Part shown: in pieces, positions 24,456 to 50,480 of the stretch
Position numbering within the stretch: position 1 is the stretch's first letter
Layout: each line of letters starts with the position of its first letter
Origin: a virus
Taxonomy: Duplodnaviria; Caudoviricetes
Reading direction: 5' to 3' (one strand)
Length of the DNA stretch: 64,000 nucleotides
IMG/VR virus record: IMGVR_UViG_3300024331_000007
Span: 96,001 to 160,000 of that record
Notes under the pieces: model-generated
Told to the model about the DNA's origin: nothing
The model's input: the letters and a program-made list of their open reading frames with translations, nothing else
Databases searched by the model: none
Made by a program: the position numbers and the translations under genes

Positions 24456-24526
24456 ATTCAAATCCTCTCATTACTGCAATTGTTTTACATCAGCTTCCTT
24501 GCAATCTTCCGCAAGTTCATCGCCAT

Positions 24527-24721
24527 TTATTTTTCGCCTACATACAAAGCCTTTCTTTGAATGTAAGTATTTGGGGCATTGTCATTGATTTTGTCTACTG
24601 CTGCCAAAGCTCGTTCTTTTGTTGAAAAGGTTATTTCGATTGTTGATGCAACAATGCTGCTCAATCCGCCTGTTGCATATGTCGTAATCAAAACACTGTG
24701 GTCTGGTGAATATGAAGACAT
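24527..24721 (-). CDS. hypothetical protein
   Basis: 64-aa ORF between the Prs-like and NAMPT-like genes. Confidence 0.55.
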   Translation of the reverse strand: MSSYSPDHSVLITTYATGGLSSIVASTIEITFSTKERALAAVDKINDNAPNTYIQRKALYVGEK

Positions 24722-24722
24722 A

Positions 24723-25610
24723 TTAAACTCTCACAATCGTAAGGTTTGGGTTAGTTGTGTCAACGTTGGGGAACGGATTAGCTGTGTAGATGTGCTTGAT
24801 TCCCGCTTCAGTGATTACGGCAAGACCCTTCGAAAAGATTCCGTGGGTGACGTAAAGTTCAATTCTTGGTTCAGTAACACCGACTCTGTTACTGAATGCT
24901 GTTACTTCAAAAGTGATTGCCTTTGCCAATTCAGTGAACGTTCGTCCACCATCGCAAATGTCGTCAACAATCAAAAATGTTTTTGTGTAATGTTCTGCTG
25001 GAATGTGAATCTGTGTCCCAGTGATTTCTCCGTTCTTCGGATCGCGAATTTTGCTGGCAGTAATCATGGGAAGATTGAATTTCTTCGCAACCTTGCCAAC
25101 CTTCTTCATTGCTCCAGCATCAGGAGATACAAGAATATATTGCTCTGCTGTTCCATTGACTTCGCGATAGCGATTGCGGCCAAGAACGTTTCCAAGGAAC
25201 GTCTCAGGCCCAATGTTGTGAACGCGATTGACGAGAGCAAGCGAAACATCACTGTGAACATCCCAAAGTTCAACAGAGTCAAAGTTGAGACTGTTGATAA
25301 TGTCGGCAATAGGACGAACGCCCAATGCTTCTCCTTCGGCACACACTCTATCCTGCCTTGCGTAAGGAAGATAGGGGCAAACGAGATTCAATTTGACATT
25401 TGGTTCGATGCGACGAAACGCATCCACGAGCATAACTAATTCCAGAACCTTATCGGAATCAGTAAGATTGGCAGTGATTGTGACGGTGTTGTGTTCAGTT
25501 TTCCAGCTTGTGATTCGAACGTGGATTTCCCCGCCGCTGAACTTCAACATTGTGTATTCGGGTAAACTTCCAACCTGCTTATGAGGAATCGATGCGTAAA
25601 TTTTAAACAT
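24723..25610 (-). CDS. prs: ribose-phosphate pyrophosphokinase-like protein (NARP1 Adps-like)
   Basis: FSGGE, YLPYARQDR, VSPDAGA, IVDDICDGGRTF, YVTHGIFS. Confidence 0.9.
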   Translation of the reverse strand: MFKIYASIPHKQVGSLPEYTMLKFSGGEIHVRITSWKTEHNTVTITANLTDSDKVLELVMLVDAFRRIEPNVKLNLVCPYLPYARQDRVCAEGEALGVRPIADIINSLNFDSVELWDVHSDVSLALVNRVHNIGPETFLGNVLGRNRYREVNGTAEQYILVSPDAGAMKKVGKVAKKFNLPMITASKIRDPKNGEITGTQIHIPAEHYTKTFLIVDDICDGGRTFTELAKAITFEVTAFSNRVGVTEPRIELYVTHGIFSKGLAVITEAGIKHIYTANPFPNVDTTNPNLTIVRV

Positions 25611-32812: not shown

Positions 32813-34519
32813 ATAGTTACTCGGACTCCTGTGTGGCGTCGTATGTATCCGCCATAACCATCATCTGAAGATGACGAAGAATCATCCTCTAACATTTTGA
32901 GCATGAGTAATTGATCTTGTTCTTTCTGAGATAATGGTCGCCACGCAAAATGTTTGCCGCGATGGGCCACAATGGTTACGATCAGACCGTTTACACCAGC
33001 AATCAAAGAAGCAAGTATCGTCCAGACCTCACCTTTTTCATGCTCCAACGTAGTTCTGAAATGATGATTGTATTCTCCCATCAGAAAAAACCAATTGATA
33101 AAGGAACACATAAACCATACATATAAAAATTGCTGTTGAGTGATATGAATATGCATTATTCTTCCAACTTTCGCAGCATTAATCGCTGCTCAATTTCGCT
33201 GTGTGTTTCTGGTCGCCACGCCCAATGTTTGAAACATCCTGTCAATAGTAAAGGTAGTGTGGCAGCGGGTCCAAAAATAACACATAAGACAACCAAAACT
33301 CTATCTCGAAAAAATGGTTCGTTGTCAGTGGTGTAGCTCCTGAGGAATCCGCTGACCATCCCCCAATTAAGAGTATCACATATTATCCACATAACCAAAA
33401 ATAAAATAACGGAGTGATGCATTGAACCTCTCAATCTGCGTAGTACTCAAGAGTTTCAAGCATATCCCACCCGTCTTTCTTACTTTTGCCCCAGAATCGT
33501 CGGGTCCAATGCTTAAAACCAAACTGTTGAAATGTTGCAATGAATGCCGCAGGGCCAAGAACCAAATCAAACAGGATGAATAAAATATCTGTTTTGAGTT
33601 TTCGTGAACGCGGATGCTTCCATGTCATATAACCATCTTGAAAACCCCATGCGGCAAAACCAAACGCCAACCAACATGATGCCAGTATGTAATAAACAAT
33701 GTGTGTCATGATTCCAACTTGTCTAAGAACCTACGTCCTTTTGAATTGTATTTCCAAAAACCAAATTTGGATTTTATACCGTGTTTATGATCCTCTATCA
33801 TTATTTCCAAAACAACCCACCATGACAATAGTCCACATATAATCATAAGGCCGAGAGCGTCTTTGTCTGGACCATCCAGAGTCAATAGATTTTTCGGCTC
33901 TCCGTCCCATAATGAAAACCAACAAAATAGCCACGCACTAAAACCAAACATCAGCCAAATTAGCCCAAAGCCAATGAAAAGTGAAATACAATAGAGTACC
34001 TCTCGCATCATGACTCCAGTTTTTCTAGGAATCTTTGCCCTTTTGATTTGTGTTTGTTTTTCCAGTTCGGCAATAACATATTGCCCTCTTTCAGCATCAT
34101 CGATGTTGTTACCAACCCACAAACTATACACGCAAGGGAACAACACCAAAGCTCGCGTTCTATTTTACCATTTTCGAAATAGGAGGTAAACAACAGCAGA
34201 ATATATGTAATAAGACCACACGTAAACCAACATACGAGGAATGCCAAAACAATCTGAGCAAATGTCATAATTCAAACTTTCTGAGAACGTGCTCGTTTTT
34301 GCTTTGATACATTGTTCGATCTGCAATAAATCGGAATAGACCAATGATCAATAGCAATGGACCCACTACAAATATTTGAGGAATGAATCGAGAAATGTTC
34401 ACCCAAACAACTTTCATATTCACGCCGGGATTTTTTAATCTCTGCATCAGGACGCCGAGAAGGATCGCTGCAAATCCAGAACCAACCCACCAGAATAAAA
34501 ACCATGCACCTGTTTTCAT
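32809..34519 (-). CDS. array of six small 2-TM membrane proteins (32809-33156, 33156-33434, 33431-33709, 33706-34011, 34008-34268, 34265-34519)
   Basis: each has two hydrophobic segments and a basic tail; shared KH(F/W)AWRP and RFL(D/E)KLES motifs. Confidence 0.75.
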
Positions 34520-36256: not shown

Positions 36257-36988
36257 TCAATAATTTCTGTTTGGTCTTAAACAGCACGGTATTGTTTTCA
36301 TTCCTTTATTCCACGGAACCCTTCCACGCATTTTATTTTTAGTTTCTTCGGAATGGCGTTTTCCAAGATGAGAATTGGACATCTTTTTCTTTGATTCTTT
36401 GGATGCTTTGTTACCTAAATTATTTTGACTACCTATCAACGAAGAAGAGATTTTCTTTTTAGTTTCGACGGAAACTAAATGACCAGTTAGAGTGTTTCTA
36501 ATTTTCTGTTTGGTTGTATTTGACGGTGGTGTTCGTAGCAAAGTGGCTGTTCTAATTTTATTTTTAGTCGCTACTGCTTTGTCTTTTCCATATATTTCTT
36601 CATAGGAACGTCCCTTGTTCCTGCCACACTGGACGGCTGACATTTTCTTTTTAGTTTCTTCAGAATGAAACTTATTTTTGAATTTTGCTTTACCAAACCG
36701 ATGACTTTTATTGAGTAGCAAAGGATTGCACCAAGATTCAAAAATTTTGAACTGTTCAAAATTGTATGCATCATCTCCGGTATTAAACTCAGCCAATATT
36801 ATCCAATCATATTCATCAAAGTTGTTGCGAACAATATTACACGATGTTCGATACATTGGAAGATCAATGTCAGACGGCACATTTAGTTTTACATTCTTTT
36901 CTCTATAACCGATGTAAAATTGTTTTGTAATTTTGTGGATACACAGATATACATATGGACGAACTTGCGATGATTTATAAATATTCAT
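36257..36988 (-). CDS. GIY-YIG/NUMOD3 endonuclease between primase and helicase
   Basis: PYVYLCIHKITKQFYIGYR; HSEETKKKMS repeats. Confidence 0.88.
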   Translation of the reverse strand: MNIYKSSQVRPYVYLCIHKITKQFYIGYREKNVKLNVPSDIDLPMYRTSCNIVRNNFDEYDWIILAEFNTGDDAYNFEQFKIFESWCNPLLLNKSHRFGKAKFKNKFHSEETKKKMSAVQCGRNKGRSYEEIYGKDKAVATKNKIRTATLLRTPPSNTTKQKIRNTLTGHLVSVETKKKISSSLIGSQNNLGNKASKESKKKMSNSHLGKRHSEETKNKMRGRVPWNKGMKTIPCCLRPNRNY

Positions 36989-38145: not shown

Positions 38146-38979
38146 CTAAATACGGATGTTGCCCCCGCTAATGTAAGTCGCGACATTGGATGGGCTTAGG
38201 TTTCCAGAACGAGAAGGATCAATGGAATCCAGAACGAAACGAATTTGGGCAAAGCTGCCCGAAACAGATTGAAACACCAAACCAGCGGCATTTGCATAAA
38301 AAGTTGACGATACATTCGCCCAATCGGTGGGCAATGGAATTGAAACCATTGTTCCCTGAGCGACGATGTTTCCAGTATAGAGAACCAAATTTGCGCAAAG
38401 AGTTGCCAGAGTGCTGTTCATTGGTCTGTTTGTTAGATCGATTGGATTGCTAGTAACGCCCACATCAACAACATCCAAAAATGTTACTGGTGTTGGATCG
38501 GGATATGCAAGAACTGGACCTTTTGCCAGCGTTGTTGTTAAACGAGAACCAAAGTTGTCATTGATGTAAATTGGATAAATGTTAAGATTTGCGTCAGTTC
38601 CAGTCAGCGCAATTTCATACATACCAAAATCCAACGGTGCTAGTTCGCTGGGCGTAAACACGATTTCAACTACTCCATTCGTCGAGTCAATAGATGTGGC
38701 GTTTGCAGTAATCAGTTCATTCTGGGTGTTTGGCTCGAACAAGCCGCACTGAATTGCAACATTACTGTTGGCAAGATTGATGCGCTTCTGGTCTGAATTT
38801 AGACACTGAATCTTGATCGGATTGTTGACACCTGAATAGAGAACTAGCGGAGTACTATACACGGTTCGGACCTCATTATAGCCTACGACTCCAATACCAC
38901 TTGTTGCATCGGAGATGCCGACAATGTAGGCTAATATCTTGGTTTGACGGCCTTCAAAATAGGCTTTTACGGTCTGCAT
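38146..38979 (-). CDS. late, probably structural beta-rich protein
   Basis: CTAAATA 6 nt upstream; YSTPLVLYSGVNNPIKIQCLNSDQKRINL. Confidence 0.6.
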   Translation of the reverse strand: MQTVKAYFEGRQTKILAYIVGISDATSGIGVVGYNEVRTVYSTPLVLYSGVNNPIKIQCLNSDQKRINLANSNVAIQCGLFEPNTQNELITANATSIDSTNGVVEIVFTPSELAPLDFGMYEIALTGTDANLNIYPIYINDNFGSRLTTTLAKGPVLAYPDPTPVTFLDVVDVGVTSNPIDLTNRPMNSTLATLCANLVLYTGNIVAQGTMVSIPLPTDWANVSSTFYANAAGLVFQSVSGSFAQIRFVLDSIDPSRSGNLSPSNVATYISGGNIRI

Positions 38980-39036: not shown

Positions 39037-39417
39037 ATGACAAGCAAGCTCTATCAAACACTTTCGGAAAAATTTCCATTCATTTCAGTCATACTTTACG
39101 GGGATTCTCAGGACGAGTATGTTGGTATCATCCAAAACGCGGACAATATCATTACCAGCATCTACGATTTCGGTCTTTTGAAGTCCGACGAAGAAAAACA
39201 CCTGTTCCTCGAATTGGGCGAAAAATGGTACTACGAGTCCAATCGTCAATTGCCCATCAACATCTATTTGAAGGATGAATGGCAGTCTTTTGACAAGGTT
39301 TTCAAGACTTTTATCACAAAGGAACTTCAAGTAATTCACGGACCATCCACAAGCCTATCGGCGCTCTCTCAGAAGAAAAAACGCCGGTCGATTATGGTTG
39401 TGAAGAAGTTGAGCTAA
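39037..39417 (+). CDS. late conserved hypothetical protein
   Basis: EYVGIIQN...LELGEKWYYESNRQLPINIYLK. Confidence 0.7.
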   Translation: MTSKLYQTLSEKFPFISVILYGDSQDEYVGIIQNADNIITSIYDFGLLKSDEEKHLFLELGEKWYYESNRQLPINIYLKDEWQSFDKVFKTFITKELQVIHGPSTSLSALSQKKKRRSIMVVKKLS

Positions 39418-40991
39418 TTTTCGTACATTGACGAGCTACGAGTTTCATGTCGAGTTTTTCGGCCTAGATGATTGTTTTTTTGAATGTAAACCAACTTGTT
39501 CAGAAGATCGGGATGCGTTCTCATCAAAATTTTCTTCTGTTTTCGCAATCTGGAATCCATTCTCAGAGGCTTATCATATGCAAACTGCCACGTTGAAAAA
39601 TTCCTGATTGGATAGTAACCATCATCCACAATTGTACCAACGAAGTTCATCTTTTCAGAAAATTTCTTGTTCGGTTGAGAAAGGCGGATAATATTCATTG
39701 TCTCAATCGCCTGATTAAATGCCGGGGCTTCGTTTTGTAAAATGTTTCTTGTGAATCGATGCTTGTCATTATGTGCTGATCCGCTAACCACATTGGTTCG
39801 CTCGGCCATCTTTTCCATTTTGTTTAGATTCGTTTTGTTTGCTGGAAGGATGACAACAGAATACGAATCAACTCGTTCATTATTTTTACCAGTTCTCGCG
39901 CTAAGCTGTCTGTTATACTGTTCGGCTGTTATTCTTCCAGCAGCCAATTCAAATACTTCAGGCAAAGCGTATACTTTTACGAAATGTCCCCTTTTATCAT
40001 AGTGGGCCACGCGCAGAAATGCCTGAGCCATGCTATTGTAGCACGAAGTTTCTGAACGATAATCATGCCAAAAATAAAGCAGGTTGTGAAACCCAACCTC
40101 AGTTGAACGACTACATGTTCTATCAATTACAAGCAACGTCAATACGCCAACCTTTGCATCTGGCGCGTCATCTTCCCACTCGTATGCTGTGGTTTTGTCG
40201 ATAAATTTGCATCGTATTCCAAGATTGTGTAATTCTTGAATCACAGCATGGTTGTTTTTGAGTTTAATACGATCTTGACTTCCGCCAATGTCTCGTAGAA
40301 CTGAAATAATTTTTCCAGTTTTCTTTCCGTTTCGAACCCAATCTTTGCAAATGTCAAGACCATGCGGAGTTAATCCATCATTGTCATAAAACTGTTCAGG
40401 CGCAGTTACAAGTTTTTTGTCTAGGAACCATTCTGCTCCGCGATATGATGATGGCGGTAAGAATGGTCGAGGAGCGGGGAAATTTTTGGAGAACTCTCTA
40501 CAATAAATTAGTTCTTCATTTGTGGCTGAATAATATCTGAATCGAACCAATTCGCCTAGTTTTTCTGTCTTCCGATAAAATGTTCCCAGACATTGTTTCT
40601 TGGCAGTTCCGTAATCGCTTTCGTCAATATGCACGTAGCAAAGAATGCCAGATGAAACTTTAGCCTTAATTTTTGCAACCTGAATCGAAATTTTGTCCAT
40701 CGAAGACACGATCAATGGTGTGATTCCATAGCTTTCCATTTCTTCAATTTGCTTCTTAGTATCTTTGCGCTGGAGAGCAGTTACATAAAAATGATGACAT
40801 TTGGCAAAATTTCTAGGTCTTGCCTTCGTAAACAACGATGCAATTTCAACCATGATTCTTTTGCCCGATTTGACTGGAGCTAGGATAGCCTCGTGTCTAT
40901 TGGCCGTCGCTATATATTTTGTCGTGTGGTCGTACAATTCAAAACGATTTGTTTTAAAATACAAAAGATCATGAAGATTTTGAGAACTCAT
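39414..40991 (-). CDS. divergent SF2 helicase-like protein
   Basis: APVKSGKR (I), HIDESDYG (II), YSAT (III), AQAFLRV (VI-like). Confidence 0.55.
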   Translation of the reverse strand: MSSQNLHDLLYFKTNRFELYDHTTKYIATANRHEAILAPVKSGKRIMVEIASLFTKARPRNFAKCHHFYVTALQRKDTKKQIEEMESYGITPLIVSSMDKISIQVAKIKAKVSSGILCYVHIDESDYGTAKKQCLGTFYRKTEKLGELVRFRYYSATNEELIYCREFSKNFPAPRPFLPPSSYRGAEWFLDKKLVTAPEQFYDNDGLTPHGLDICKDWVRNGKKTGKIISVLRDIGGSQDRIKLKNNHAVIQELHNLGIRCKFIDKTTAYEWEDDAPDAKVGVLTLLVIDRTCSRSTEVGFHNLLYFWHDYRSETSCYNSMAQAFLRVAHYDKRGHFVKVYALPEVFELAAGRITAEQYNRQLSARTGKNNERVDSYSVVILPANKTNLNKMEKMAERTNVVSGSAHNDKHRFTRNILQNEAPAFNQAIETMNIIRLSQPNKKFSEKMNFVGTIVDDGYYPIRNFSTWQFAYDKPLRMDSRLRKQKKILMRTHPDLLNKLVYIQKNNHLGRKTRHETRSSSMYEN

Positions 40992-41043
40992 CGAATATCT
41001 TTCCTTTCATGTATGGCAATTTTAAGTATACACCCAATCACAA

Positions 41044-41583
41044 CTATTGTATATCAAAATTTTGGTTTAGGCCATCAATCTCTTGATCAATTTGATTTAT
41101 CTCTTCAATGGCCTTTTTCACGGCTCCGCTTAAATCTGTATCCACAAAGTCACGAATGATCGTCATGATTTCATCTACGGCATCGGGAGGATTCCAAACT
41201 TTCAAAACAACATTGTCATCTTCGCCATTACCATCTGGAACATCCAAACGCGGAAGGTTCGGCAACACCGCTAGAATTTGCCAAATCTTGTCTTCCACTT
41301 CTTTGAGAGCCTGTTTTTGAATTGGAACCTCGACCTTAATTATAGCCGCCTCATTCAAAAATGGTTCAATTGGTTGCTTGGCTCTCTTTGCCATCGCAAT
41401 GTCTTCGCTGATGACATTCAGGCGAGCAAGATTGATTTCCAGAGCAGCAATCAAAATCTTTCGATGCGCATTCAAATCCAACACTTCGTCAATCTTGTCT
41501 TCAGGCTTCGTTTTGTCATGGCGCAATGCAAGTCTGCGCTTGTACTCTTCGGGATTCGCTTCGATTTCTTTTATATCATGCAT
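41044..41583 (-). CDS. stand-alone seryl-tRNA synthetase N-terminal arm with no catalytic domain
   Basis: MHDIKEIEANPE..., coiled coil, LPNLPRLDVPDGNGEDDNVVLKVWNPP, then an unrelated helix. Confidence 0.8.
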   Translation of the reverse strand: MHDIKEIEANPEEYKRRLALRHDKTKPEDKIDEVLDLNAHRKILIAALEINLARLNVISEDIAMAKRAKQPIEPFLNEAAIIKVEVPIQKQALKEVEDKIWQILAVLPNLPRLDVPDGNGEDDNVVLKVWNPPDAVDEIMTIIRDFVDTDLSGAVKKAIEEINQIDQEIDGLNQNFDIQ

Positions 41584-42070
41584 ATTGCACCAACTTTACT
41601 AGCATTTTTACAGAATCAGTTGGACATTCAATGTGATCCAGTGCATGAATGTCACCTTGTACCGCTGCCATTTGCACTTCTTCACATGGCCTCTTGATGT
41701 ATTTGATAATTGTTGGTTGTTCTGTCACTGCCGCTATTTGCGCTTCAACACAAGCATATGGCATGTACGCAATTGCATACGGAGCACAACTGACAGCAAA
41801 AAGTTGCATTTCTTTTCCAACGGGTGTCATATATTCCAGAACTGACAAATCGCGATCAATCGCATATCGCTGAACATCTTTGTGTGGACTTTTGATGAAT
41901 CGAATGTTTCGCTGATTCTTTTTTACCGCCGCCATTTGAACGGGCAACTTTGGATTTCGAATCAGCTTCAAACGAAACGGTTGTTCGAGCACAGCCGCAA
42001 TCTGTTCCTCGACTGTTTCCATGCGAGGAACTTTTTCATACGTTTCTGTGCTGAACAATTTTCTTGCCAT
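41576..42070 (-). CDS. helical-repeat protein (DUF4116-like)
   Basis: ~22-aa repeats QxAAV......I.YIK.P. Confidence 0.7.
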   Translation of the reverse strand: MARKLFSTETYEKVPRMETVEEQIAAVLEQPFRLKLIRNPKLPVQMAAVKKNQRNIRFIKSPHKDVQRYAIDRDLSVLEYMTPVGKEMQLFAVSCAPYAIAYMPYACVEAQIAAVTEQPTIIKYIKRPCEEVQMAAVQGDIHALDHIECPTDSVKMLVKLVQYA

Positions 42071-42527
42071 TACGACCACTCCATTAAAAATAAAACATAT
42101 GCTGCTTTACTTTTAAACTTGATAAACGTGTATCCCTCGCCGATAACGTCAGATCGAATCAGAGTTGCATTATATCTGTCTTTGTATCTCTGATTAATCT
42201 CTTTCCAAGACAATCTCGCCGAATCCCCGTTGACAACAGCTACCCATGCTTTAGTATGAGCGGCATATATGTCTTCGATTTTAACAGTTACACTCACAAC
42301 CACTCCAACAGAAAAAGCATGTATTCCGATTCTGATTTGAAAACAACCTCTCGGTATCCACTTTTATCAGCTATCAATGTTACGTTGTATCTCTGATTAA
42401 AAAAATTTTCAATGCCTTCGCTGATAATATCTGGACATGATGTTTGAAAATCTAAAACGGCAACATCCCATGCTTTGCCTAATGGCTTGTGTACTCCCCA
42501 ATCTGCTTTTACCGTGTAACTCATCAT
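42070..42527 (-). CDS. two more 'LEWS' family paralogs (42070-42297, 42294-42527)
   Basis: FKSKAAYVLFLMEWS / FKSESEYMLFLLEWL. Confidence 0.8.
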
Positions 42528-42534
42528 TGCCTAT

Positions 42535-42816
42535 CTATTCCGCTAGCTTAGCTAGCATTGCAATTTCGTCAGTTGGATTCTTGATATAGTGAATGGCTTT
42601 TCCATCTTGATTCACCGCTGAAGATTGTGCCTCTGGAGATGGAGTCTCAATGTATTGAATATAGAGAGGGTGTCCATCCAATGCCGCCAACTCTTCATCG
42701 ACTGACGGGCGTTTAATGTATCGAATTGTTGATGGTTCTTCGGCAATCGCAGCAAGGCGGCTTCGCTTTGTCATGCACATCAACGTCAAACGAATTACAT
42801 TCGGCATTATTTCCAT
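42535..42816 (-). CDS. helical-repeat protein (DUF4116-like), paralog
   Basis: IRYIKRPS..EELAA / AQSSAVNQDGKAIHYIKNP. Confidence 0.7.
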   Translation of the reverse strand: MEIMPNVIRLTLMCMTKRSRLAAIAEEPSTIRYIKRPSVDEELAALDGHPLYIQYIETPSPEAQSSAVNQDGKAIHYIKNPTDEIAMLAKLAE

Positions 42817-42824
42817 AGGAACTC

Positions 42825-43386
42825 CTAAACTGTTAGTAGGTGCATCATGATTTCATCTTGTTCTGCTTTTTCAATGTCTTCAACCTGCATCCAAAATGGG
42901 GTATAACCATCATGAACAGCGACCCAAACACCGCCATACTGATTTTCAATTTCATCGGGCGATTTGCCTTTATACTGTTCCAAACTTATGAAAGTGTCAT
43001 AGTTTGGATGTTTGCCAATACTTAAAATTTTCACGATGTATTTCTGCCCACCCCGAAACATTCTGACGTATTCGCCAACCTCGAAAGTCTCTTCCATTTG
43101 ACACTCGCTATCAGTTTCCATTTTCGTGAAGTTTTCCAATAACTCCATGATTTGACGCAATCTGCAATTTCAATTCTTTTGGGTCAAACTTTTTTCCATC
43201 TGTGATAGCAATAAGAATTGAATTTGTTTTGCGAAGATTTGTGACTAAAACATTTTGAAGATCGCGAGTCAAGGTAGCCTTTTCCCGATAAATTCTTTCA
43301 GTTTGGGCCATTAGTTCCGCTTTGATTTCCGCAAATCTCTCAGGAGATGCGGAGCGAATTTCTTCAAATGTATCTCTTATATCCAT
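42825..43386 (-). CDS. two hypothetical genes (42825-43160, 43111-43386)
   Basis: coupled ORFs; the first has an SH3-like FEVGEYVR motif. Confidence 0.55.
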
Positions 43387-43453
43387 ATCTTTTCCTTTCA
43401 AATGCTTCAAAACTTTGGGATGGCGATTTTCTAGCCATCCCAACACTTGCCAA

Positions 43454-44563
43454 TTATTCTCCGTATGCCAGCGGATTGCCCATCAGGGACATCTTCGCAA
43501 CATCGGACCACTCTTCATAATCCTCGTTGAAGGTCTTCACCAGTCCAGCCAGCTTGATAACTGTGCGGAGTGAAAGTTCGTTGAAGCCCTTGGCATTCTC
43601 GCGAAGGAACTCCATGATTTCCTTGCCAGCCTTCTTTGAAAGGTTGAACTGATCCAACATTCCATGATTCTTCACAAGGTCTTCGATGCGAAGCATCTTC
43701 TCACGGAAAGTATGCACAGTCAAATCAAGAAAATGCGCACGAGACATGAGAGCGGAGAGGTGACCACGAAGACGCTCACCGCGAACCTTGCGGAAGTTGA
43801 TGTTTGAAATGAAGATCACGCTTCCTTTAAACTCATAACTGTTAGGAATGTCTTCCTTCGTTAAGGTATGAGAAGCAACATTCCAATAAATCATACGTTT
43901 CGCTGAAGTGTCCAGCGCCGCCTTCAGGATGTTCAACGCGGTTTCGTCTGTAAAAACCATGTCGCAATCGTCCAGAACCAGAACGTCATTGTCGTTGCTA
44001 AACTCATGCAGCTTCATGTACAGACCAATCGGAGTCATGGCACCCGACACAATCTCGTAACGTTTAGGTGTATCTTCAAACTGATCAATCATGCCAGCTT
44101 CACCAAGAGTCTTTTCGACGCCGAAAGTCTTTCCAACTCCCGGTGCTCCAGTGACGAACAGAGCGCGAATATCTCCGCGACGTGCGCCGAGTGTGAGCTT
44201 GTTCAGAACTGAAAAACGCTTGTTTACGCGAACTACAATCTGCTCGTCGGTTTCGGTGGTTTCAACATCAGGAATCGAATCATCTTCCAGAAGAGAAACA
44301 GCGGCAGTTGTGGAAGATGCAGCGGCATTGCGACGAGCAATGGGAGACTTCTTAACGGGATTGAACTCGCCGTTAATCGTAAAATCCTTCTCAGAGCGAA
44401 CCTTGATGCGAGCCTTTGGACGGCCATACAACTTCATGCCGTCAACAGTTACGAAACCTTCGCCAGTCTTTGCGCCGACTTTGTAGCCTTCAAGAATGGT
44501 AAAGGTCTGATTCTTGATGTTCTGTCCGCGAGACTTGCCACGATTAATGGTTACTGTCGCCAT
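43454..44563 (-). CDS. AAA+/P-loop ATPase with N-terminal beta domain
   Basis: GAPGVGKT, VLDDCD, LKAALD, FISN, SRAHFLDL. Confidence 0.8.
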   Translation of the reverse strand: MATVTINRGKSRGQNIKNQTFTILEGYKVGAKTGEGFVTVDGMKLYGRPKARIKVRSEKDFTINGEFNPVKKSPIARRNAAASSTTAAVSLLEDDSIPDVETTETDEQIVVRVNKRFSVLNKLTLGARRGDIRALFVTGAPGVGKTFGVEKTLGEAGMIDQFEDTPKRYEIVSGAMTPIGLYMKLHEFSNDNDVLVLDDCDMVFTDETALNILKAALDTSAKRMIYWNVASHTLTKEDIPNSYEFKGSVIFISNINFRKVRGERLRGHLSALMSRAHFLDLTVHTFREKMLRIEDLVKNHGMLDQFNLSKKAGKEIMEFLRENAKGFNELSLRTVIKLAGLVKTFNEDYEEWSDVAKMSLMGNPLAYGE

Positions 44564-45721: not shown

Positions 45722-46813
45722 TTAAAGGTCCAACATGTGATCTAATGCCACATGCGCCCAATACTTCACCACGTCGCGAACCTTGATTTGATTTACAACA
45801 TTTCCAGAGACAAGATTCTCAAGTGCCCATGCCAAATGTTGTGGAGTGATTCGATACATTGTTGTGCAGAGGCAACCTTGCTCAGTCAGATTGAAAATCG
45901 TCTTTCCAAGTGGAGCGTACTTTTTCGCAAGACGATTCACAAGATGAATTTCGGTTCCGATTGCAAACTCTGTTCCAACAGGAGCAGCATCAACAATCTT
46001 GATGAGGCTTTCTGTCGAACCAACGGCATCTGCTTTCTGGCAAACTTCCCATTTGCATTCTGGATGAACAATCACTTTGATGTTTGGATGAGCAGCACGA
46101 ACATCATCAACGTGACTCGCAAGGAATCTCTGGTGAACGGCACAATGTCCTTTCCACAAAAGAATTTTACTGTGGTCATAATCAGCTTTACTCAAACTAC
46201 CCTGTAGCGCCCACGGATCATACACAGACATTTCATTCAAGGGAATGCCCATATTGTATCCAGTATTACGTCCAAGATGCTGATCTGGCAGAAATAAAAT
46301 TCGCTTTGCTTGCTTGAATGCCCACTCGAAAGCACGTTGCGCATTCGAAGAAGTACAAACCAACCCTCCGTGCTCACCCACAAATGCTTTGATAGCAGCC
46401 GTCGAGTTCATATATGTAATCGGAAGTGTTTCATCTGCCAGATGAAGCTTTTCCAATGTTTCCCAACACGCTTCAACTTGAGAAATTTCTGCCATATCAG
46501 CCATCGAACATCCAGCGTTTAAATCTGGAAGAATAACAATTTGGTCATGGCCCAAAATATCTGCGCTCTCAGCCATAAAATGAACGCCACAATAAACAAT
46601 GTACTTCGCATTTGTTTTCGCGCCATCTTTGGCGAGTTTAAAACTGTCACCTGTGAAGTCCGCAAACTTGATTACTTCGTCGCGCTGATAATGATGCCCC
46701 AAAATGACAACAGAATTACCCAGCGTCTTTCGAGCCGCAGCGATTCTATCGTCCATTGTATTATCGGGGTATTGCAGGTAATTTTCCAGTGTGCAAACTT
46801 GACCAGTTGCCAT
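45722..46813 (-). CDS. nadA: quinolinate synthase A
   Basis: ILGHHYQR, CGVHFMAE, AGCSMA, TYMNS, PDQHLG, WKGHCAVH, VHPEC, GTEIH, CTTM. Confidence 0.96.
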   Translation of the reverse strand: MATGQVCTLENYLQYPDNTMDDRIAAARKTLGNSVVILGHHYQRDEVIKFADFTGDSFKLAKDGAKTNAKYIVYCGVHFMAESADILGHDQIVILPDLNAGCSMADMAEISQVEACWETLEKLHLADETLPITYMNSTAAIKAFVGEHGGLVCTSSNAQRAFEWAFKQAKRILFLPDQHLGRNTGYNMGIPLNEMSVYDPWALQGSLSKADYDHSKILLWKGHCAVHQRFLASHVDDVRAAHPNIKVIVHPECKWEVCQKADAVGSTESLIKIVDAAPVGTEFAIGTEIHLVNRLAKKYAPLGKTIFNLTEQGCLCTTMYRITPQHLAWALENLVSGNVVNQIKVRDVVKYWAHVALDHMLDL

Positions 46814-46832
46814 GTCTCAACCTCTCATTCAC

Positions 46833-46861
46833 AGTATATCAAAAATGACTGAAATGGTCAA
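46833..46861 (-). promoter_or_regulatory. sigma70-type promoter of nadA
   Basis: TTGACC-17-TATACT. Confidence 0.7.
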
Positions 46862-47202
46862 TTCTGGCGTATCTCTACTTCTTTCAAGTCTTTGAGTTGA
46901 TCGTAAACTTCTGGAGCTACGTTGATACAACCCATTGTTACACCCTGTCTCTTTTTTGGGTCATCGCTTGCAAGCCTTTCGGCACGGTGTTGTGTGGGAT
47001 TACGCAACCACACACGATGAATTGCAAATGCATAGTTTTCTGTTTCTTTGAAAACCAACACGTCGCCGCCATATCCCAATTGTTTGGTCAACATATGGCG
47101 TACCTCAAAAACACCTGTCGGCGTTTTGCTTCCTACCAAAGCGTGATGGCAATGGCCTTGGAAGCAGATTAACGCCGACGAGAGAATTACAAGAGCAGTC
47201 AT
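46858..47202 (-). CDS. L,D-transpeptidase catalytic (YkuD-like) domain protein
   Basis: VG..TPTGVF, AIHRVW, VTMGCINV (His...Cys). Confidence 0.75.
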   Translation of the reverse strand: MTALVILSSALICFQGHCHHALVGSKTPTGVFEVRHMLTKQLGYGGDVLVFKETENYAFAIHRVWLRNPTQHRAERLASDDPKKRQGVTMGCINVAPEVYDQLKDLKEVEIRQN

Positions 47203-48141
47203 TTACTCACTGATCTTCTTTGTTTCGGTTGGTGTTACGGTAATAGCAGGTGTTACTGTAACTGCTGGAGCAGGTGCAGGAGTTGCTGCTGGTGTTGGAA
47301 CAACGATGATAGCTGGTGTGTTATTAACTGGTGCTGGAGCAGGTGCAGGAGTTGGCTCAGGAACCATTGCGAGGCAATCTTCCAAAGTCAGCTTGGCACG
47401 TTTTGCTGCGTCCGTTGAGCAAAGCAACTTTGCAGCCGCAGTGAAGTTATGCAAGAGAGCAAATTCACGCGCTGTTTCGCGAGTATCGCAACCCTTGTCA
47501 ATCTTGCCGCCGCCCAGCGATGCGCCGAAGAATGGCGAGGAAGCACCCGCTGAATAACTCTTCACGCATGGAGCAGAAGGAATTGCATCAGGAGCATATG
47601 CCATTGGAGTCTGACGAACTTCGTTGTAGGATGAGCTAACAGATGTGCTGTTACCTGAACCTGTGCTGTTGTTTGAAGATGCAGCAGAGCCACCCTGTCC
47701 ACCTGTCGCAGAAGCGTTACCGCCTGTTGCTGAAGATGAAGAGTTTCCGCTGTTGCTGACTCCCGACTTGCTGGAGCTAGAACTTGAGCTAGTATTTGTG
47801 TTGTTGTTCGTGGAATTTCCAGAGTCAGTTACGTTACCGCCCTGTCCAATTCCAATTCCAATTCCGACACCAACACCTGTTCCTTCGCCGCCGTTTCCGC
47901 CCTGTCCACCTTGACCGCCATTGCCTCCCTGACCACCATTACCTCCGTTGCCAGTTCCGCCGTTACCTCCGCCGTTGTTACCACCCTTATGACAGCTTGG
48001 ATCGCTCTTACCGCTGGAGTGATACTTGTTTCCCTTGCCACAATCTGTTCCGCTTCCAGTCGTATCAGCAAGCATAGAAACTGGGAATGCTGAGAGAGCA
48101 AGAGCAAAAACTGAGAGTGCCATAATCTTTGTGAATTTCAT
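47203..48141 (-). CDS. secreted Gly/Asn/Ser-rich protein with Cys domain and Pro/Ala tail
   Basis: signal peptide, GGNGGQ repeats, PSAPCVKSYSAG...CDTRE, PAPA linker. Confidence 0.7.
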   Translation of the reverse strand: MKFTKIMALSVFALALSAFPVSMLADTTGSGTDCGKGNKYHSSGKSDPSCHKGGNNGGGNGGTGNGGNGGQGGNGGQGGQGGNGGEGTGVGVGIGIGIGQGGNVTDSGNSTNNNTNTSSSSSSSKSGVSNSGNSSSSATGGNASATGGQGGSAASSNNSTGSGNSTSVSSSYNEVRQTPMAYAPDAIPSAPCVKSYSAGASSPFFGASLGGGKIDKGCDTRETAREFALLHNFTAAAKLLCSTDAAKRAKLTLEDCLAMVPEPTPAPAPAPVNNTPAIIVVPTPAATPAPAPAVTVTPAITVTPTETKKISE

Positions 48142-48216
48142 ATTTTAGTTCCTTTCATTTCTTGGTTTGGGTTATTTGTTAATAGCTGTAGCCTTAACTT
48201 TATTAGCTACAGAAGT

Positions 48217-48759
48217 TTATCGAACTCTGTACGTGGCTGTACTTGAGGGGGTTTCTTTGAACGTAATTGCACTAAGCCACGCGGTTCCGTTTGTCTTTTC
48301 TAAAACTATCGGAGAAAGAATCTCAAAAAAATGCTTTGCAAGATATTCTGAAGTCGGTGCTCCTCTGATAATGTATGTCTTACCAAAGTTCGACTGTCCT
48401 GCCCAAAAACTTTTGTGATTAACTGAATCAACAACATCATTATACCAATCAGTAAAGATATGATATGGTTGGCGTGTTAATTTCTCATCATATGCCATGT
48501 TGATAAACTTTGTATCGTGCAATGAAAGTATAATTCCATGATCACACAAAGCATCAACATGATCCATTAAGATTTGTTTAAGAAATCCATAATCCAAAAT
48601 CATGTCAGTTTGAGGACCATCTTCGATTAAATCACCTGTTAACTCCGCGATGATCGTTCCGCGATGTCCGTGCAGGTTTTTACATTTTGATTCGTGCTTT
48701 GGTACTCGATGTGCGTAATCAAAATCTATTTCTTTGGATATTGACTTCTCTTCAATCAT
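48217..48759 (-). CDS. queD: 6-carboxy-tetrahydropterin synthase
   Basis: FDYAHR...CKNLHGH, DHG, PTSEYLA, ETP. Confidence 0.88.
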   Translation of the reverse strand: MIEEKSISKEIDFDYAHRVPKHESKCKNLHGHRGTIIAELTGDLIEDGPQTDMILDYGFLKQILMDHVDALCDHGIILSLHDTKFINMAYDEKLTRQPYHIFTDWYNDVVDSVNHKSFWAGQSNFGKTYIIRGAPTSEYLAKHFFEILSPIVLEKTNGTAWLSAITFKETPSSTATYRVR

Positions 48760-48811
48760 ATTTCCTTCGTAACAGGTTTGAGTATAGTGTGACTGTTATC
48801 ACATGTCAAAA

Positions 48812-49390
48812 TTATTTTTTGGCTGATCGGTTACGAGTGTGTGACCTAATGGTAATCAACATTTCGTTATGAAGATCAGCGAGAGCGCCAGCATCATTTT
48901 CAGCATCGTGCGGTCTGCCACGAAATTTCAATCCAACGGATTCCAATGCTTCTGATAGCGGCAACTTGTATTTCTGGTTGTATGCACTTCGCCACAAAAT
49001 ACCAAAATCCAAAATGCCATTAATTGACCACGGATTAGGACAGGAATATTTTGCGCAATGTTCGGAGATTGGTTCGTAATCGCTTCCCCACGCATATGTA
49101 ATTTTGGTTTGCGGAGCGAACTCTTTCTTAATTGTTCGCATAACTTCTGGAAAGTAGTGGCCCTCATCAATTATTTTTGAACGAGTGATTCCTGTCAGTT
49201 TTGTGCAATAGTCGCTGACCTCAAAATGCTTACTTTGGGGTCTGACGAAATAACTTTTTCGGCGTATGATCTTGAGCGTTTCGGATTCAACTTCTACGAT
49301 GCCCAATTGTATAATGTGGTTTGTTTGACCATGTGGACAGTCTCCGTTCTCCCAACAAAGCATCTCTGCATCCAAAAACTGTATTTTCAT
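48812..49390 (-). CDS. DEDDh 3'-5' exonuclease (ERI/KapD-like)
   Basis: FLDAE, IIQLG, LTGIT, AWGSD, HDAENDA. Confidence 0.85.
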   Translation of the reverse strand: MKIQFLDAEMLCWENGDCPHGQTNHIIQLGIVEVESETLKIIRRKSYFVRPQSKHFEVSDYCTKLTGITRSKIIDEGHYFPEVMRTIKKEFAPQTKITYAWGSDYEPISEHCAKYSCPNPWSINGILDFGILWRSAYNQKYKLPLSEALESVGLKFRGRPHDAENDAGALADLHNEMLITIRSHTRNRSAKK

Positions 49391-49430
49391 AATTATTCTT
49401 TCTGCCAGTGGCGTATTACTTGAAGTATAA

Positions 49431-49502
49431 CATAAATACAAATGCGATTCGCGGTGTTGAAGCACCCAATCGCCCTAACGCTATTATGGAGCGCCAGCTA
49501 TG
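49431..49502 (+). promoter_or_regulatory. late box plus conserved two-hairpin leader, copy 3
   Basis: CATAAATA; GCGATT-CGC-GGTG-6nt-CACC-C-AATCGC; CGCT-attatgg-AGCG; CAGC-TATG. Confidence 0.75.
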
Positions 49503-50162
49503 GATATTTACTCCGCAAAATTTTCCCAAGACAAAAAATTTTATGTTTACGAATATCTTCGCGCACATAAATCAAAATATGGTGATATTGGAAGTCCCTA
49601 CTATGTAGGTAAAGGAACTGGTAGTAGAGCGTTTTCAAACGATCATACCACCAAACCGCCAAAAGACAAAAACAATATTCGTGTTTCAAGTTTGATGAAC
49701 GAAGCTGACGCTTTTCAAAACGAAATGTTCAAAATTATGTTGTCGGGCCGTATTGATCTTGGAACTGGTTGCTTACGAAATAGGACTGACGGCGGCGAAG
49801 GTTCGTCTGGAGCAATTCGTACTCAAGATACAATTCGTAAATGCGTAGAAGTTAGAAAACGAAACAATTCTTACAAACGAACTAAAGAAGCAGACAAAAA
49901 AGCCAATGCAACAAAATTTAAAAATGGAACTCATCGTCGTAGCAAAGACTCTCTTATAAAACAAATCAATACTAGGCGAGAAAAAGGTAACTTGAATACC
50001 TGTACTCTTGAAAGTAGAAGAAAATCAGTAGAAACACGAAAAGCAAATGGAACTCTCGGTCGCACCAAGGAATCTATAGCAAAAGGTCTTGCCACACGAA
50101 TATCAAAATATGGCCCATTTGCAAAACCAAAGTTTGAATTGTATTTGCCTTGTATTCTTTAA
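49500..50162 (+). CDS. GIY-YIG endonuclease adjacent to the tmRNA gene
   Basis: FYVYEYLR...PYYVGKG, LRNRTDGGEG, basic repeats. Confidence 0.85.
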   Translation: MDIYSAKFSQDKKFYVYEYLRAHKSKYGDIGSPYYVGKGTGSRAFSNDHTTKPPKDKNNIRVSSLMNEADAFQNEMFKIMLSGRIDLGTGCLRNRTDGGEGSSGAIRTQDTIRKCVEVRKRNNSYKRTKEADKKANATKFKNGTHRRSKDSLIKQINTRREKGNLNTCTLESRRKSVETRKANGTLGRTKESIAKGLATRISKYGPFAKPKFELYLPCIL

Positions 50163-50164
50163 CA

Positions 50165-50480
50165 AGGAACAAGGCTAAAACCTCGGAGTAGTTTTTAGGC
50201 TACTGGCACCGCTACGCGGTTGAGAGCAACTGTGTAAGTTGCAATCTCGGCATTGCGGCCACTGTTGTTCACAGCAATTATAGTTTCCATTCCCTTAACG
50301 TCAGGCTTGGTACTCGGTTCGTAACTAACGCTATATTTGACCCGTCGAAACCTTGGCACCCACATTTGAAAAACGTAATACATAAATTGGTGTAGGTGGC
50401 GGGAATCGAACCCGCGTCCGAATCAGTATAACGTGAGTCTCTCTCACACGAACGTCATTCGCAAAAACATCTTTACGAAT
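50165..50480 (-). ncRNA. ssrA: circularly permuted (two-piece) tmRNA
   Basis: acceptor piece ends GCGGG-TTCGATT-CCCGC-CACCTAC-A-CCA at 50388; after a 24-nt spacer the coding piece starts GTGGGTG-CCAAGGTTTCGAC-GGG at 50363; G3.U70; resume context TATAATT-GCT; tag frame 50275-50195; outer ends approximate. Confidence 0.88.

What the first reader, a model, noticed from the sequence alone, without database searches (positions are those of the whole stretch)
41044..41583. Stand-alone SerRS tRNA-binding arm with no catalytic domain
About 135 residues follow bacterial SerRS from MxDIK.I..NPE through the coiled coil to PNLP..DVPDG.GEDDNV...W..P, exactly up to the catalytic-domain boundary. An unrelated acidic helix follows, and both alternative frames stop at once. 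Known: this arm recognises the long variable arm of tRNA-Ser/Sec. Inference: it may be a tRNA-Ser binder or protector (for example against anticodon nucleases), a dominant-negative, or a decoy for SerRS-targeting defences. It is intact and coupled within an operon.
Basis: partly seen in the sequence, partly recalled or inferred. Interest (0 to 1): 0.72.

Follow-up and report, generated by a model that had tools for sequence, protein, structure and literature searches.

The report
Phage stand-alone SerRS tRNA-binding arm
A 360-kb soil phage carries an intact small gene for only the tRNA-gripping arm of seryl-tRNA synthetase, with no enzyme part anywhere in the record; similar arm-only genes arose separately in other giant phages, so it is probably a working serine-tRNA binder of untested role.

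Summary
Window 41044-41583 (minus strand) is a 179-residue ORF. Residues 1-134 are a full SerRS N-terminal arm (Pfam PF02403, 62.9 bits, E 4e-17). The predicted fold superposes on solved SerRS arms. Residues 135-176 form a new acidic helix. The 360-kb phage record holds no class II catalytic core and no serS remnant in any frame.

The gene looks functional:
- It starts at the SerRS M1 and overlaps the upstream stop by 8 nt.
- It keeps 76% of the conserved arm columns; real SerRS arms keep 79%.
- Arm and tail both use phage-typical codons.

It has no orthologue. It lies in a variable island that the closest relatives lack, so dN/dS cannot be measured on it.

An unrelated clade of arm-only genes exists in other large phages, including 405-435 kb contigs, with dN/dS of 0.17-0.28. 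The tree favours separate origins. This scan also noted an arm-only gene in another phage (e1-5345455).

[quoted passage not shown] I rate it a new variant of a known kind, of moderate interest.

The parts
41044..41583 (-). Whole gene: 179-aa stand-alone SerRS arm protein (ATG at 41583-41581, TAA at 41046-41044)
   Evidence: ORF list. Pfam PF02403, E 4e-17. In-frame codon score 0.33 bits/codon against -0.8 in the shifted frames; the phage's long ORFs score 0.25 +/- 0.11.
41182..41583 (-). Residues 1-134: SerRS N-terminal domain (two short helices, coiled-coil arm, conserved PNLP..DVP.G..E.DN..W linker)
   Evidence: PDB alignments cover 2-134. The AF2 model has pLDDT 90, and Foldseek's top 35 hits are all SerRS, with 125 columns at rmsd 1.6-2.5 A. 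All 7 columns that are at least 90% conserved are kept, and 76% of those at least 70% conserved.
41266..41505 (-). Residues 27-106: antiparallel coiled coil, the part that contacts the tRNA long variable arm and elbow in SerRS
   Evidence: AF2 helices 27-67 and 73-106, pLDDT 97-98. Role of the arm from PMC3711452. Net charge -3 with 11 K+R: the net charge is within the range of real arms, and 11 K+R is the lowest in the set (median 14).
41047..41181 (-). Residues 135-179: new acidic C-terminal helix, not SerRS-derived
   Evidence: AF2 helix 135-176, pLDDT 74-94. Net charge -8. Codon score 0.30, like phage genes. No SerRS match in any frame. Similarity to the tails of the other phage clade is not significant (hhalign E 0.15).
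41576..42079 (-). Upstream 167-aa repeat protein; its TGA overlaps the arm gene's ATG by 8 nt
   Evidence: Matches phrog_17056 and phrog_5925, both of unknown function.
39414..40991 (-). Downstream 525-aa gene, 52 nt after the arm gene's stop; a diverged SF2 (ResIII/DEAD-like) helicase, as a lead only
   Evidence: No Pfam or PHROG hit. ESM Atlas feature and structure neighbours carry ResIII/DEAD/Helicase_C.
39418..43453 (-). Variable accessory island holding the arm gene, between the conserved AAA gene (43454-44563) and the conserved 126-aa and 277-aa genes (39037-39417 +, 38146-38979 -)
   Evidence: Relatives L102, L103 and L105 have flanking genes 60-80% identical and keep the order AAA ... 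g277-primase-DnaB. They hold only 1.1-1.3 kb there (a homing-endonuclease-like gene or a repeat gene), with no arm and no 525-aa gene.

Best explanation
The gene encodes a non-catalytic protein made of the complete tRNA-binding arm of a bacterial-type seryl-tRNA synthetase plus a new 42-residue acidic helix. It was captured from a cellular serS, cut at the domain boundary, and kept as an accessory gene in a variable island of a ~360-kb soil phage. That phage encodes 51 tRNAs (two of them tRNA-Ser), a tmRNA and three RNA-ligase-family proteins, but no aminoacyl-tRNA synthetase core.

Shown:
- domain identity and predicted fold;
- absence of any catalytic partner in the record;
- intact and coupled reading frame;
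- conservation of the arm's key positions;
- phage-like codon usage in both arm and tail;
- existence of separately derived arm-only genes under purifying selection in other giant phages.

Inferred:
- The protein still clamps the long variable arm and elbow of tRNA-Ser-type tRNAs, as the arm does within SerRS.
- The acidic helix supplies a new contact or regulatory surface.
- The biological role is to hold or shield tRNA-Ser, host or phage, during infection, most plausibly against tRNA-Ser-directed host nucleases. This would act beside the phage's tRNA-replacement and RNA-ligase repair tools.

My odds are about 0.6 that it is a functional tRNA-Ser-type binder of some kind, and about 0.25-0.3 that shielding from defence nucleases is the role.
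For: Domain and fold.

No catalytic core or serS remnant:
- PF00587, PF00152, PF13393 and PF01409 are all absent from the record.
- A SerRS HMM run with all filters off on every six-frame ORF finds only the arm.
- The three frames past the boundary show nothing.

Signs of function:
- The start is the SerRS M1, and an 8-nt ATGCATGA overlap couples it to the upstream gene.
- 7 of 7 near-invariant columns and 76% of the columns at least 70% conserved are kept. Real SerRS arms keep 79% on average, range 62-96%.
- The best identity to any of 1.84 billion representative proteins is only 35-41% over the matched stretch, yet the 179 codons are open.
- Codon score is 0.34 for the arm and 0.30 for the tail, against 0.25 +/- 0.11 for the phage's long ORFs.

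Recurrence:
- A six-member clade of arm-plus-helical-tail proteins sits inside phage-like contigs, including 405-435 kb contigs. One lies about 3 kb from RNA ligase, CCA-adding enzyme and PTH2.
- That clade is monophyletic at 100/98 and has dN/dS of 0.17-0.28.
- The query falls elsewhere in the tree; 0 of 200 bootstrap trees unite them.

Phage context: 51 tRNAs including tRNA-Ser GGA and UGA, a tmRNA and three RNA-ligase-family genes.

Literature:
- The coiled-coil N-domain is what binds the extra arm and outer corner of the tRNA, and a crystal state exists in which only the N-domain holds the tRNA (PMC3711452).
- A type I-A retron HNH nuclease depletes all four E. coli tRNA-Ser species, and phage T5 tRNA-Ser does not escape it (PMC12475279).
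Against: - No tRNA binding was tested or modelled.
- The gene is a singleton. The 5.8-billion-cluster collection, the 1.84-billion representative set, and IMG/VR and JGI contigs hold no orthologue. Selection on this gene itself therefore cannot be measured.
- The three relatives that span the interval lack it, as does a complete 347-kb relative. It is dispensable for the lineage and could be recent cargo.
- Part of the column conservation may date from before the truncation.
- An isolated monomeric arm may bind tRNA only weakly, since in SerRS the arm works within a dimer. The protein is acidic overall (pI 4.6) and has the fewest K+R in its coiled coil of the set compared.
- The arm grips the variable arm and elbow, not the anticodon loop, so it would not obviously block anticodon-loop nucleases.
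- The gene's neighbours are replication genes and small genes of unknown function, not tRNA genes.
Confidence: 0.4

Rival explanations
1. Adaptor model. The arm selects tRNA-Ser-type tRNAs and the new acidic helix recruits another phage or host enzyme (modification, repair or processing). The protein would then be a substrate-selection factor rather than a shield.
For: SerRS itself acts as the tRNA-Ser selection factor for the methyltransferase METTL6, and the two jointly hold the long variable arm (10.1101/2023.12.05.570192; PDB 8p7b and 8p7d also appear). The added confident helix 135-176 is a plausible docking element. The other phage clade also ends in a long terminal helix, 163-210. One clade member lies near RNA ligase, CCA-adding enzyme and PTH2. 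This phage has three RNA-ligase-family genes.
Against: No partner has been identified. The neighbours are a repeat protein and a helicase-like protein with no tRNA link. The tails of the two lineages are not demonstrably homologous.
Confidence: 0.15
2. Non-functional debris. A serS fragment was picked up by illegitimate recombination in a hypervariable, endonuclease-rich region, is still open by chance, and is on its way to loss.
For: It is a singleton with no orthologues. It lies in an island that is replaced by other cargo in relatives. It is absent from a complete 347-kb relative. The genome is rich in homing endonucleases. No RNA evidence is available.
Against: The fragment begins exactly at the SerRS M1 and ends at the domain boundary. 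It is translationally coupled to the upstream gene. The key columns are kept as well as in real enzymes, and codon usage in both arm and tail matches the phage. The identity of at most 35-41% to any sampled SerRS, with no stop in 179 codons, argues for long constraint. The tail folds as a confident amphipathic helix. Arm-only genes in other phages are under purifying selection.
Confidence: 0.15
3. Non-tRNA role. The coiled coil has been re-used as a structural or protein-binding module, for example binding a host or phage protein, and no longer binds tRNA.
For: Long coiled coils are versatile protein-binding elements. The protein is acidic overall (pI 4.6) and has the lowest K+R count in the coiled coil of the set compared. 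Most members of the other phage clade have deleted the conserved linker. A Seryl_tRNA_N-annotated accessory cluster is reported next to type XI-like retrons, so the domain occurs outside translation (PMC13712802).
Against: Positions nearly invariant in real SerRS arms (R41, N56, the PNLP..G..N linker) are all retained. The coiled-coil net charge of -3 lies within the range of real arms, -6 to +3.
Confidence: 0.12
4. Competitive inhibitor. The free arm sequesters host tRNA-Ser (or tRNA-Sec) away from host SerRS, lowering seryl-tRNA supply as a host-takeover or regulatory device.
For: The arm is the determinant that SerRS uses to select its tRNAs (PMC3711452). The phage carries its own tRNA-Ser genes with unusual features that might escape binding: a 96-nt GGA species with a 7-bp variable stem, and a UGA species with A73 and a poorly paired variable region.
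Against: The phage has no SerRS of its own, so it depends on host charging of tRNA-Ser and general inhibition would hurt it. A monomeric arm is unlikely to out-compete dimeric SerRS. The dimer interface (catalytic domain) is absent, so a classical dominant-negative heterodimer is not possible.
Confidence: 0.1

Closest known systems
N-terminal tRNA-binding arm of bacterial-type seryl-tRNA synthetase (Pfam PF02403; e.g. PDB 6r1n, 2dq3, 6r1m, 1sry)
   Same: Homologous over residues 1-134, with the same two short helices, ~100-A-type antiparallel coiled coil and conserved linker. The near-invariant positions are kept.
   Different: There is no class II catalytic domain and therefore no dimer interface and no aminoacylation. 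A 42-residue acidic helix is appended instead.
Arm-only 'MLDR' proteins of other giant phages
   Same: These are stand-alone SerRS arms of 192-227 aa in phage-like contigs, followed by helical tails that end in a long helix. P0110 is cut at the same point, just after the W of the linker.
   Different: Arm identity is only 29-39%, no better than to bacterial SerRS. The tails are not significantly alike. The tree places the query with Bacteriovoracaceae-type SerRS arms (91/81) and never with this clade in 200 bootstrap trees, although an AU test on a larger set did not reject one origin (p 0.73). Genome contexts are not syntenic.
Free-standing tRNA-binding modules derived from or shared with synthetases: PylSn (the separate N-terminal tRNA-binding protein of bacterial PylRS), Trbp111/Arc1p-type domains, and the stand-alone LysRS-type KTSC domain protein of jumbo phages
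   Same: A synthetase-associated RNA-binding module encoded as its own small protein. The KTSC case is reported in jumbo phages and proposed to support phage translation (PMC7824862). PylSn and Trbp111 are recalled from knowledge and were not re-read.
   Different: The folds and families are unrelated. PylSn works with a separately encoded catalytic subunit, whereas no catalytic partner exists in this phage record.
SLIMP and other non-canonical SerRS paralogues (SerRS2, amino acid:carrier-protein ligases)
   Same: SLIMP is a non-catalytic SerRS relative that still binds tRNA-Ser (review PMC9437257).
   Different: SLIMP keeps the whole two-domain body and dimerises with SerRS. The aa:CP ligases are the mirror image, a catalytic core without the arm. 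The review lists no arm-only form.

Membership tests
Seryl-tRNA synthetase (class IIa aaRS, EC 6.1.1.11) | N-terminal coiled-coil tRNA-binding arm | tested here: met
   PF02403 at 62.9 bits against a cut-off of 28.2. The fold superposes on SerRS arms at rmsd 1.6-2.5 A over 125 columns.
Seryl-tRNA synthetase (class IIa aaRS, EC 6.1.1.11) | Class II catalytic core with motifs 1-3 (PF00587) in the same protein or genome | tested here: not met
   PF00587 is absent from the 360-kb record. A SerRS HMM with filters off finds only positions 1-132. Nothing is found in any frame after the boundary. The record is about 90% complete, so a distant piece in the missing part is not strictly excluded.
Pfam Seryl_tRNA_N domain family (PF02403) | Score above the gathering threshold over the full profile | tested here: met
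   Profile positions 1-108 of 108 are matched at E 4e-17. The genome scan gives one copy only.
   In the careful tree the clade is supported at 100/98 and the query lies elsewhere, with 0 of 200 bootstrap trees uniting them. The AU test does not reject one origin (p 0.73), so the result is not decisive.
   hhalign of the query tail against the clade tails aligns 13 columns (KAIEEINQIDQEI to AAMERIRLLDAEF) at E 0.15, probability 0.4%.
Split synthetase with a separate tRNA-binding subunit (PylSn/PylSc type) | A separately encoded catalytic subunit in the same genome | tested here: not met
   No class II core of the PF00587, PF00152, PF13393 or PF01409 families, and no MazG-linked mini-core context.
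tRNA-binding protein (functional class) | Specific binding to tRNA-Ser-type tRNAs | not testable with these tools
   This needs EMSA, anisotropy or a protein-RNA structure. Only residue conservation and charge were examined.
Phage anti-defence protein (functional class) | Relieves a defined host defence | not testable with these tools
   The only support is circumstantial: location in a variable accessory island and a published tRNA-Ser-cleaving retron (PMC12475279).

The most novel reading that the evidence does not exclude
Giant phages have repeatedly cut the tRNA-gripping arm out of seryl-tRNA synthetase, at least twice independently, to make a protein clamp that covers the long variable arm shared by all tRNA-Ser species. 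This would protect them from tRNA-Ser-directed immune nucleases such as the type I-A retron HNH. It would be a third, protein-based counter to tRNA-targeting immunity, beside tRNA replacement and RNA-ligase repair.
Probability: 0.2. Interest if true: 0.8.

Novelty: new variant of a known kind. Interest (0 to 1): 0.55.

Why it matters
tRNAs are now recognised as a main battleground between bacteria and phages. The known phage answers are spare tRNAs and RNA repair. A retron nuclease that removes every tRNA-Ser, and is not evaded by phage tRNA-Ser, has been published (PMC12475279), but no phage answer to it is known.

An arm-only SerRS protein is a ready-made, shape-specific clamp for exactly the feature that all tRNA-Ser species share. 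If it binds and shields them, it defines a new class of counter-defence and gives a small tool for capturing type-2 tRNAs.

Even without that role, the repeated domestication of a synthetase's tRNA-binding arm adds a missing entry to the catalogue of SerRS-derived proteins. That catalogue so far holds whole paralogues and arm-less cores, but no arm-only form (PMC9437257).

Tried and rejected
1. Split gene or catalytic partner in trans. Rejected: no PF00587, PF00152, PF13393, PF01409 or MazG in the record, nothing with my own SerRS HMM, and nothing in the other frames.
2. Stop-codon read-through, prompted by the genome's suppressor tRNAs (CTA x2, TTA). Rejected: the TAA is followed by further stops and no SerRS-like sequence, and code 11 already gives 86% ORF coverage.
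3. Orthologue hunt.
- The near-length word search found only the protein itself plus a broken bacterial SerRS.
- In the exhaustive search, the short hits I inspected are contig-end or frameshifted SerRS pieces.
- IMG/VR and JGI contig scans gave no close relative.
4. tblastn against deposited phages. The 10 hits are ~30-35% identical SerRS-like stretches in unannotated 'phage' records of Staphylococcus, Listeria and Enterococcus, which look like host SerRS and were not pursued.
5. Neighbour-based search for relatives failed with the 525-aa and AAA proteins but succeeded with DnaB.
6. Microdiversity and expression. No RNA holder was listed. A second soil study holds four short identical pieces, so there are no variants to count.
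7. Homodimer prediction for the protein gave no verdict. It is not evidence either way.
8. Tail homology to the other clade is not significant.
9. P0177 (80 aa, on a 105-kb contig) turned out to be a broken bacterial serS, not a stand-alone arm. P0073 (145 aa) is an arm-only ORF 65-74% identical to real SerRS fragments, but it sits on a 1-kb contig with only a weak phage-like neighbour.
10. Donor inference. The nearest full-length relatives are Bacteriovoracaceae SerRS, but identity to them is only ~35%. That is too weak to name a donor or a host.
11. ESM Atlas clusters of ~150-aa 'N-domain proteins' are bacterial and look like fragments. No large viral cluster was found.
12. The records holding the other phage clade are not available for whole-record searches, so I could not check whether those phages lack a catalytic core.

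Full report
**What is there.** The finding lies on the minus strand. The ORF at 41044-41583 encodes 179 residues.
- Pfam's Seryl_tRNA_N model matches residues 1-111 over its whole length (62.9 bits, cut-off 28.2, E 4e-17).
- phmmer against PDB aligns residues 2-134 with residues 2-131 of S. aureus SerRS and 2-134 of Aquifex SerRS. Nothing matches beyond that point.
- In an alignment with 29 SerRS arms the protein keeps every invariant or near-invariant position: M1, D3, R41, N56, P108, N109, P116, G118, N124.
- An AlphaFold2 model (mean pLDDT 90) gives helices 4-9 and 11-19, the antiparallel coiled coil 27-67/73-106, a loop at 107-134, and a single long helix at 135-176.
- Foldseek's top 35 PDB hits are all SerRS, aligned only over the arm (125 columns, rmsd 1.6-2.5 A).
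- The tail has net charge -8 and the whole protein has pI 4.6.
- After the TAA there are further stops, and none of the three frames downstream of the boundary resembles SerRS.
- The ATG overlaps the TGA of the upstream 167-aa gene by 8 nt (ATGCATGA). The next gene starts 52 nt after the stop.

**The genome.** The window is part of a 359,890-bp IMG/VR virus record from soil, estimated about 90% complete.
- It carries 51 tRNA genes and a tmRNA. The tRNAs include tRNA-Ser(GGA), 96 nt with a 7-bp variable stem, and tRNA-Ser(UGA), as well as three suppressor-type tRNAs.
- It has three RNA-ligase-family genes.
- Earlier notes of this scan report a phage RNase P RNA, an amber-gated Pth-like gene and many homing endonucleases in the same genome.
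- No class II synthetase core is present. PF00587, PF00152, PF13393 and PF01409 all give nothing, while the controls ring in 14 of 14 genomes.
- A SerRS HMM run with all filters off on every six-frame ORF of 50 aa or more finds only the arm, HMM positions 1-132.
- There is no MazG and no CCA-adding enzyme.

The arm is thus not half of a split synthetase within the sequence held.

**Is it a working gene?** Direct orthologues do not exist in what can be searched.
- The near-length search of 5.8 billion clusters returns only the protein itself and a broken alphaproteobacterial-looking SerRS.
- The exhaustive search of 1.84 billion representatives gives 814 hits, all to the arm. None exceeds 35-41% identity over its matched stretch, and the short hits I inspected are contig-end or frameshifted SerRS pieces.
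- IMG/VR and JGI contig scans add nothing close.
- A second soil study holds the same phage, but only as four identical short pieces.

Indirect tests all point to constraint:
- The protein keeps 7 of 7 columns that are at least 90% conserved and 76% of those at least 70% conserved. The 29 real SerRS arms score a mean of 79% on the same leave-one-out measure, range 62-96%.
- The coding frame scores 0.33 bits per codon with a codon table trained on the phage's 87 long ORFs, which themselves score 0.25 +/- 0.11. The shifted frames score -0.8. Arm (0.34) and tail (0.30) score alike.
- The ORF starts exactly at the SerRS initiator methionine (only 4 open codons lie upstream), ends at the domain boundary, and is coupled to the upstream gene.

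One caveat applies. Some of the column conservation may have been inherited from the time when the sequence was still part of an enzyme.

**Where it sits.** Using the nearby DnaB-like helicase I found 368 related phage loci. The four closest have DnaB 71-85% identical.
- Three of them (L102, L103, L105) span the interval. They keep the order AAA-ATPase ... 277-aa gene - primase - DnaB with 60-80% identical proteins.
- Between the AAA gene and the 277-aa gene they hold only 1.1-1.3 kb: a homing-endonuclease-like gene or a repeat gene, plus a conserved 126-aa gene on the other strand.
- This phage holds about 4 kb there: six small genes, the arm gene and a 525-aa helicase-like gene.
- None of the 80 loci encodes an arm.
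- A complete 347-kb relative and four partial ones have no PF02403 match anywhere.

The arm gene is therefore lineage-specific cargo in a variable accessory island. That fits an accessory or host-specific function, but it also fits transient debris.

**Arm-only genes elsewhere.** Among the weaker hits, two proteins (P0150, P0110) had non-SerRS helical tails. A profile search then recovered a six-member set: P0150, P0152, P0153, P0154, P0158 and P0110, 192-227 aa, all starting MLDR.
- They are complete genes inside phage-like contigs full of small unannotated genes. The contigs include two of 405-435 kb. One 17.5-kb contig has the gene about 3 kb from RNA ligase, a CCA-adding enzyme, PTH2, SSB and a chaperonin.
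- Pairwise dN/dS is 0.17-0.28, with dS near saturation.
- The AlphaFold2 model of P0154 has the same arm followed by helices that end in a long helix, 163-210.
- Most members have deleted the conserved linker. P0110 keeps it and ends the SerRS part at the same W-D/N-P point as the query.

The relationship to the query looks independent.
- Arm identity is 29-39%.
- The tails align only over 13 columns at E 0.15.
- The contexts share no synteny.
- In a careful 55-row tree the clade is supported at 100/98, while the query is sister (91/81) to arms of Bacteriovoracaceae-type SerRS. No bootstrap tree of 200 unites them.
- An AU test on a 153-row set did not reject a single origin (p 0.73), so separate origin is favoured but not proven.
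- A third candidate, P0073 (145 aa, cut at the same boundary, 65-74% identical to real SerRS fragments), sits on a 1-kb contig and remains uncertain.
I could not inspect it.

**How it most likely works.** In canonical SerRS the coiled coil binds the stem of the long extra arm and the outer corner (D and T loops) of tRNA-Ser and tRNA-Sec, through backbone contacts. A crystal state exists in which only the N-terminal domain holds the tRNA (PMC3711452). The phage protein keeps that module intact, so the simplest inference is that it still recognises long-variable-arm tRNAs of the serine type.

What it does with them is open. I rank the options as follows.
- First, a shield or holder of tRNA-Ser during infection. 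A type I-A retron HNH nuclease has been shown to deplete all four E. coli tRNA-Ser species and to cut phage T5 tRNA-Ser as well, so spare tRNAs are not a sufficient answer (PMC12475279). This phage otherwise invests heavily in tRNA supply and repair.
- Second, an adaptor that presents tRNA-Ser to a partner through the new helix, as SerRS does for METTL6 (10.1101/2023.12.05.570192).
- Less likely, an inhibitor of host charging. The phage depends on host SerRS, and the dimer interface needed for a dominant-negative is missing.
- Less likely, a re-used coiled coil with no tRNA role.
- Less likely, debris.

The points against binding are the acidic character of the protein, the low count of basic residues in the coiled coil (11, against a median of 14), and the loss of the dimeric context. 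The homodimer prediction gave no verdict and is not used.

**Comparison with what is known.** The protein is a member of the Seryl_tRNA_N domain family. It is not a seryl-tRNA synthetase, because the defining catalytic core was tested for and is absent. A review of synthetase paralogues lists SerRS2, SLIMP and the arm-less amino acid:carrier-protein ligases, but no arm-only form (PMC9437257). A comparative study of jumbo phages mentions a stand-alone LysRS-type KTSC RNA-binding domain protein but no SerRS arm (PMC7824862). Full-text searches for the Pfam name found only incidental mentions, one of them a Seryl_tRNA_N-annotated accessory cluster beside type XI-like retrons (PMC13712802). Free-standing tRNA-binding modules related to synthetases are a known kind (PylSn, Trbp111, KTSC). 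I therefore rate this a new variant of a known kind, not categorically new.

**Verdict.** I put interest at 0.55. The finding is a clean and apparently undescribed domain architecture that recurs in giant phages, with a directly testable link to tRNA-Ser-targeting immunity. This particular gene is a singleton, with no expression data and no measured tRNA binding.

Noticed in passing
window 50104-50480 (-): ARAGORN calls a phage-encoded tmRNA with a 26-residue tag peptide (AVNNSGRNAEIATYTVALNRVAVPVA), about 8.5 kb upstream of the arm gene on the same strand.
   Followed up: no
window 45722-49465 (-): An auxiliary gene run: quinolinate synthase NadA (E 1e-98), a QueD/PTPS-like protein and an RNase T-type exonuclease.
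   Followed up: no
window 41576-42079 and 42535-42816 (-): Two proteins built of ~22-residue repeats (pattern P..E.Q.AAV...P..I.YI) match phrog_17056 and phrog_5925, both of unknown function. Relatives L102 and L105 carry longer arrays of the same repeat.
   Followed up: partly
window 42070-42303 and 42294-42527 (-): Two overlapping tandem 77-aa paralogues ending ...F.S...Y.LFL.EW; weak relatives occur in L103 and L105.
   Followed up: no
G000:C1:14185-14262 and 24352-25279 (outside the window): ARAGORN reports a tRNA with a four-base anticodon (cacg), two CTA (amber) suppressor-type tRNAs and one TTA (ochre) suppressor-type tRNA in the tRNA block. The standard code still gives 86% coverage by long ORFs.
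   Followed up: partly
G000:C1:11096-11191 and 34093-34179 (outside the window): The phage tRNA-Ser(GGA) is 96 nt with a 7-bp variable stem and G73. The tRNA-Ser(UGA) has A73 and an A-rich variable region that ARAGORN draws unpaired, which is unusual for a bacterial-type tRNA-Ser.
   Followed up: no
window 39414-40991 (-); L101 2-1831: The 525-aa gene after the arm is a diverged SF2 helicase-like protein whose nearest ESM Atlas clusters are labelled mostly Nucleocytoviricota. The closest relative, L101, carries a different SF2 helicase at the same position.
   Followed up: partly
L104 319-3227; L105 10001-12909: In two close relatives the DnaB-like helicase match is interrupted by about 1.5 kb between residues 337 and 338, suggesting an intein, intron or endonuclease insertion. 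In this window a NUMOD3 endonuclease gene (36257-36988) sits between primase and DnaB.
   Followed up: no
window 14119-14562 and 57513-57914 (-); G000:C1:193680-194132: Three RNA-ligase-family (PF09414) genes in one phage genome, two of them inside this window.
   Followed up: no
window 39037-39417 (+): A 126-aa ORF on the opposite strand, inside an otherwise minus-strand block, is conserved in relatives L101, L103 and L105, so it is a real divergently oriented gene.
   Followed up: partly
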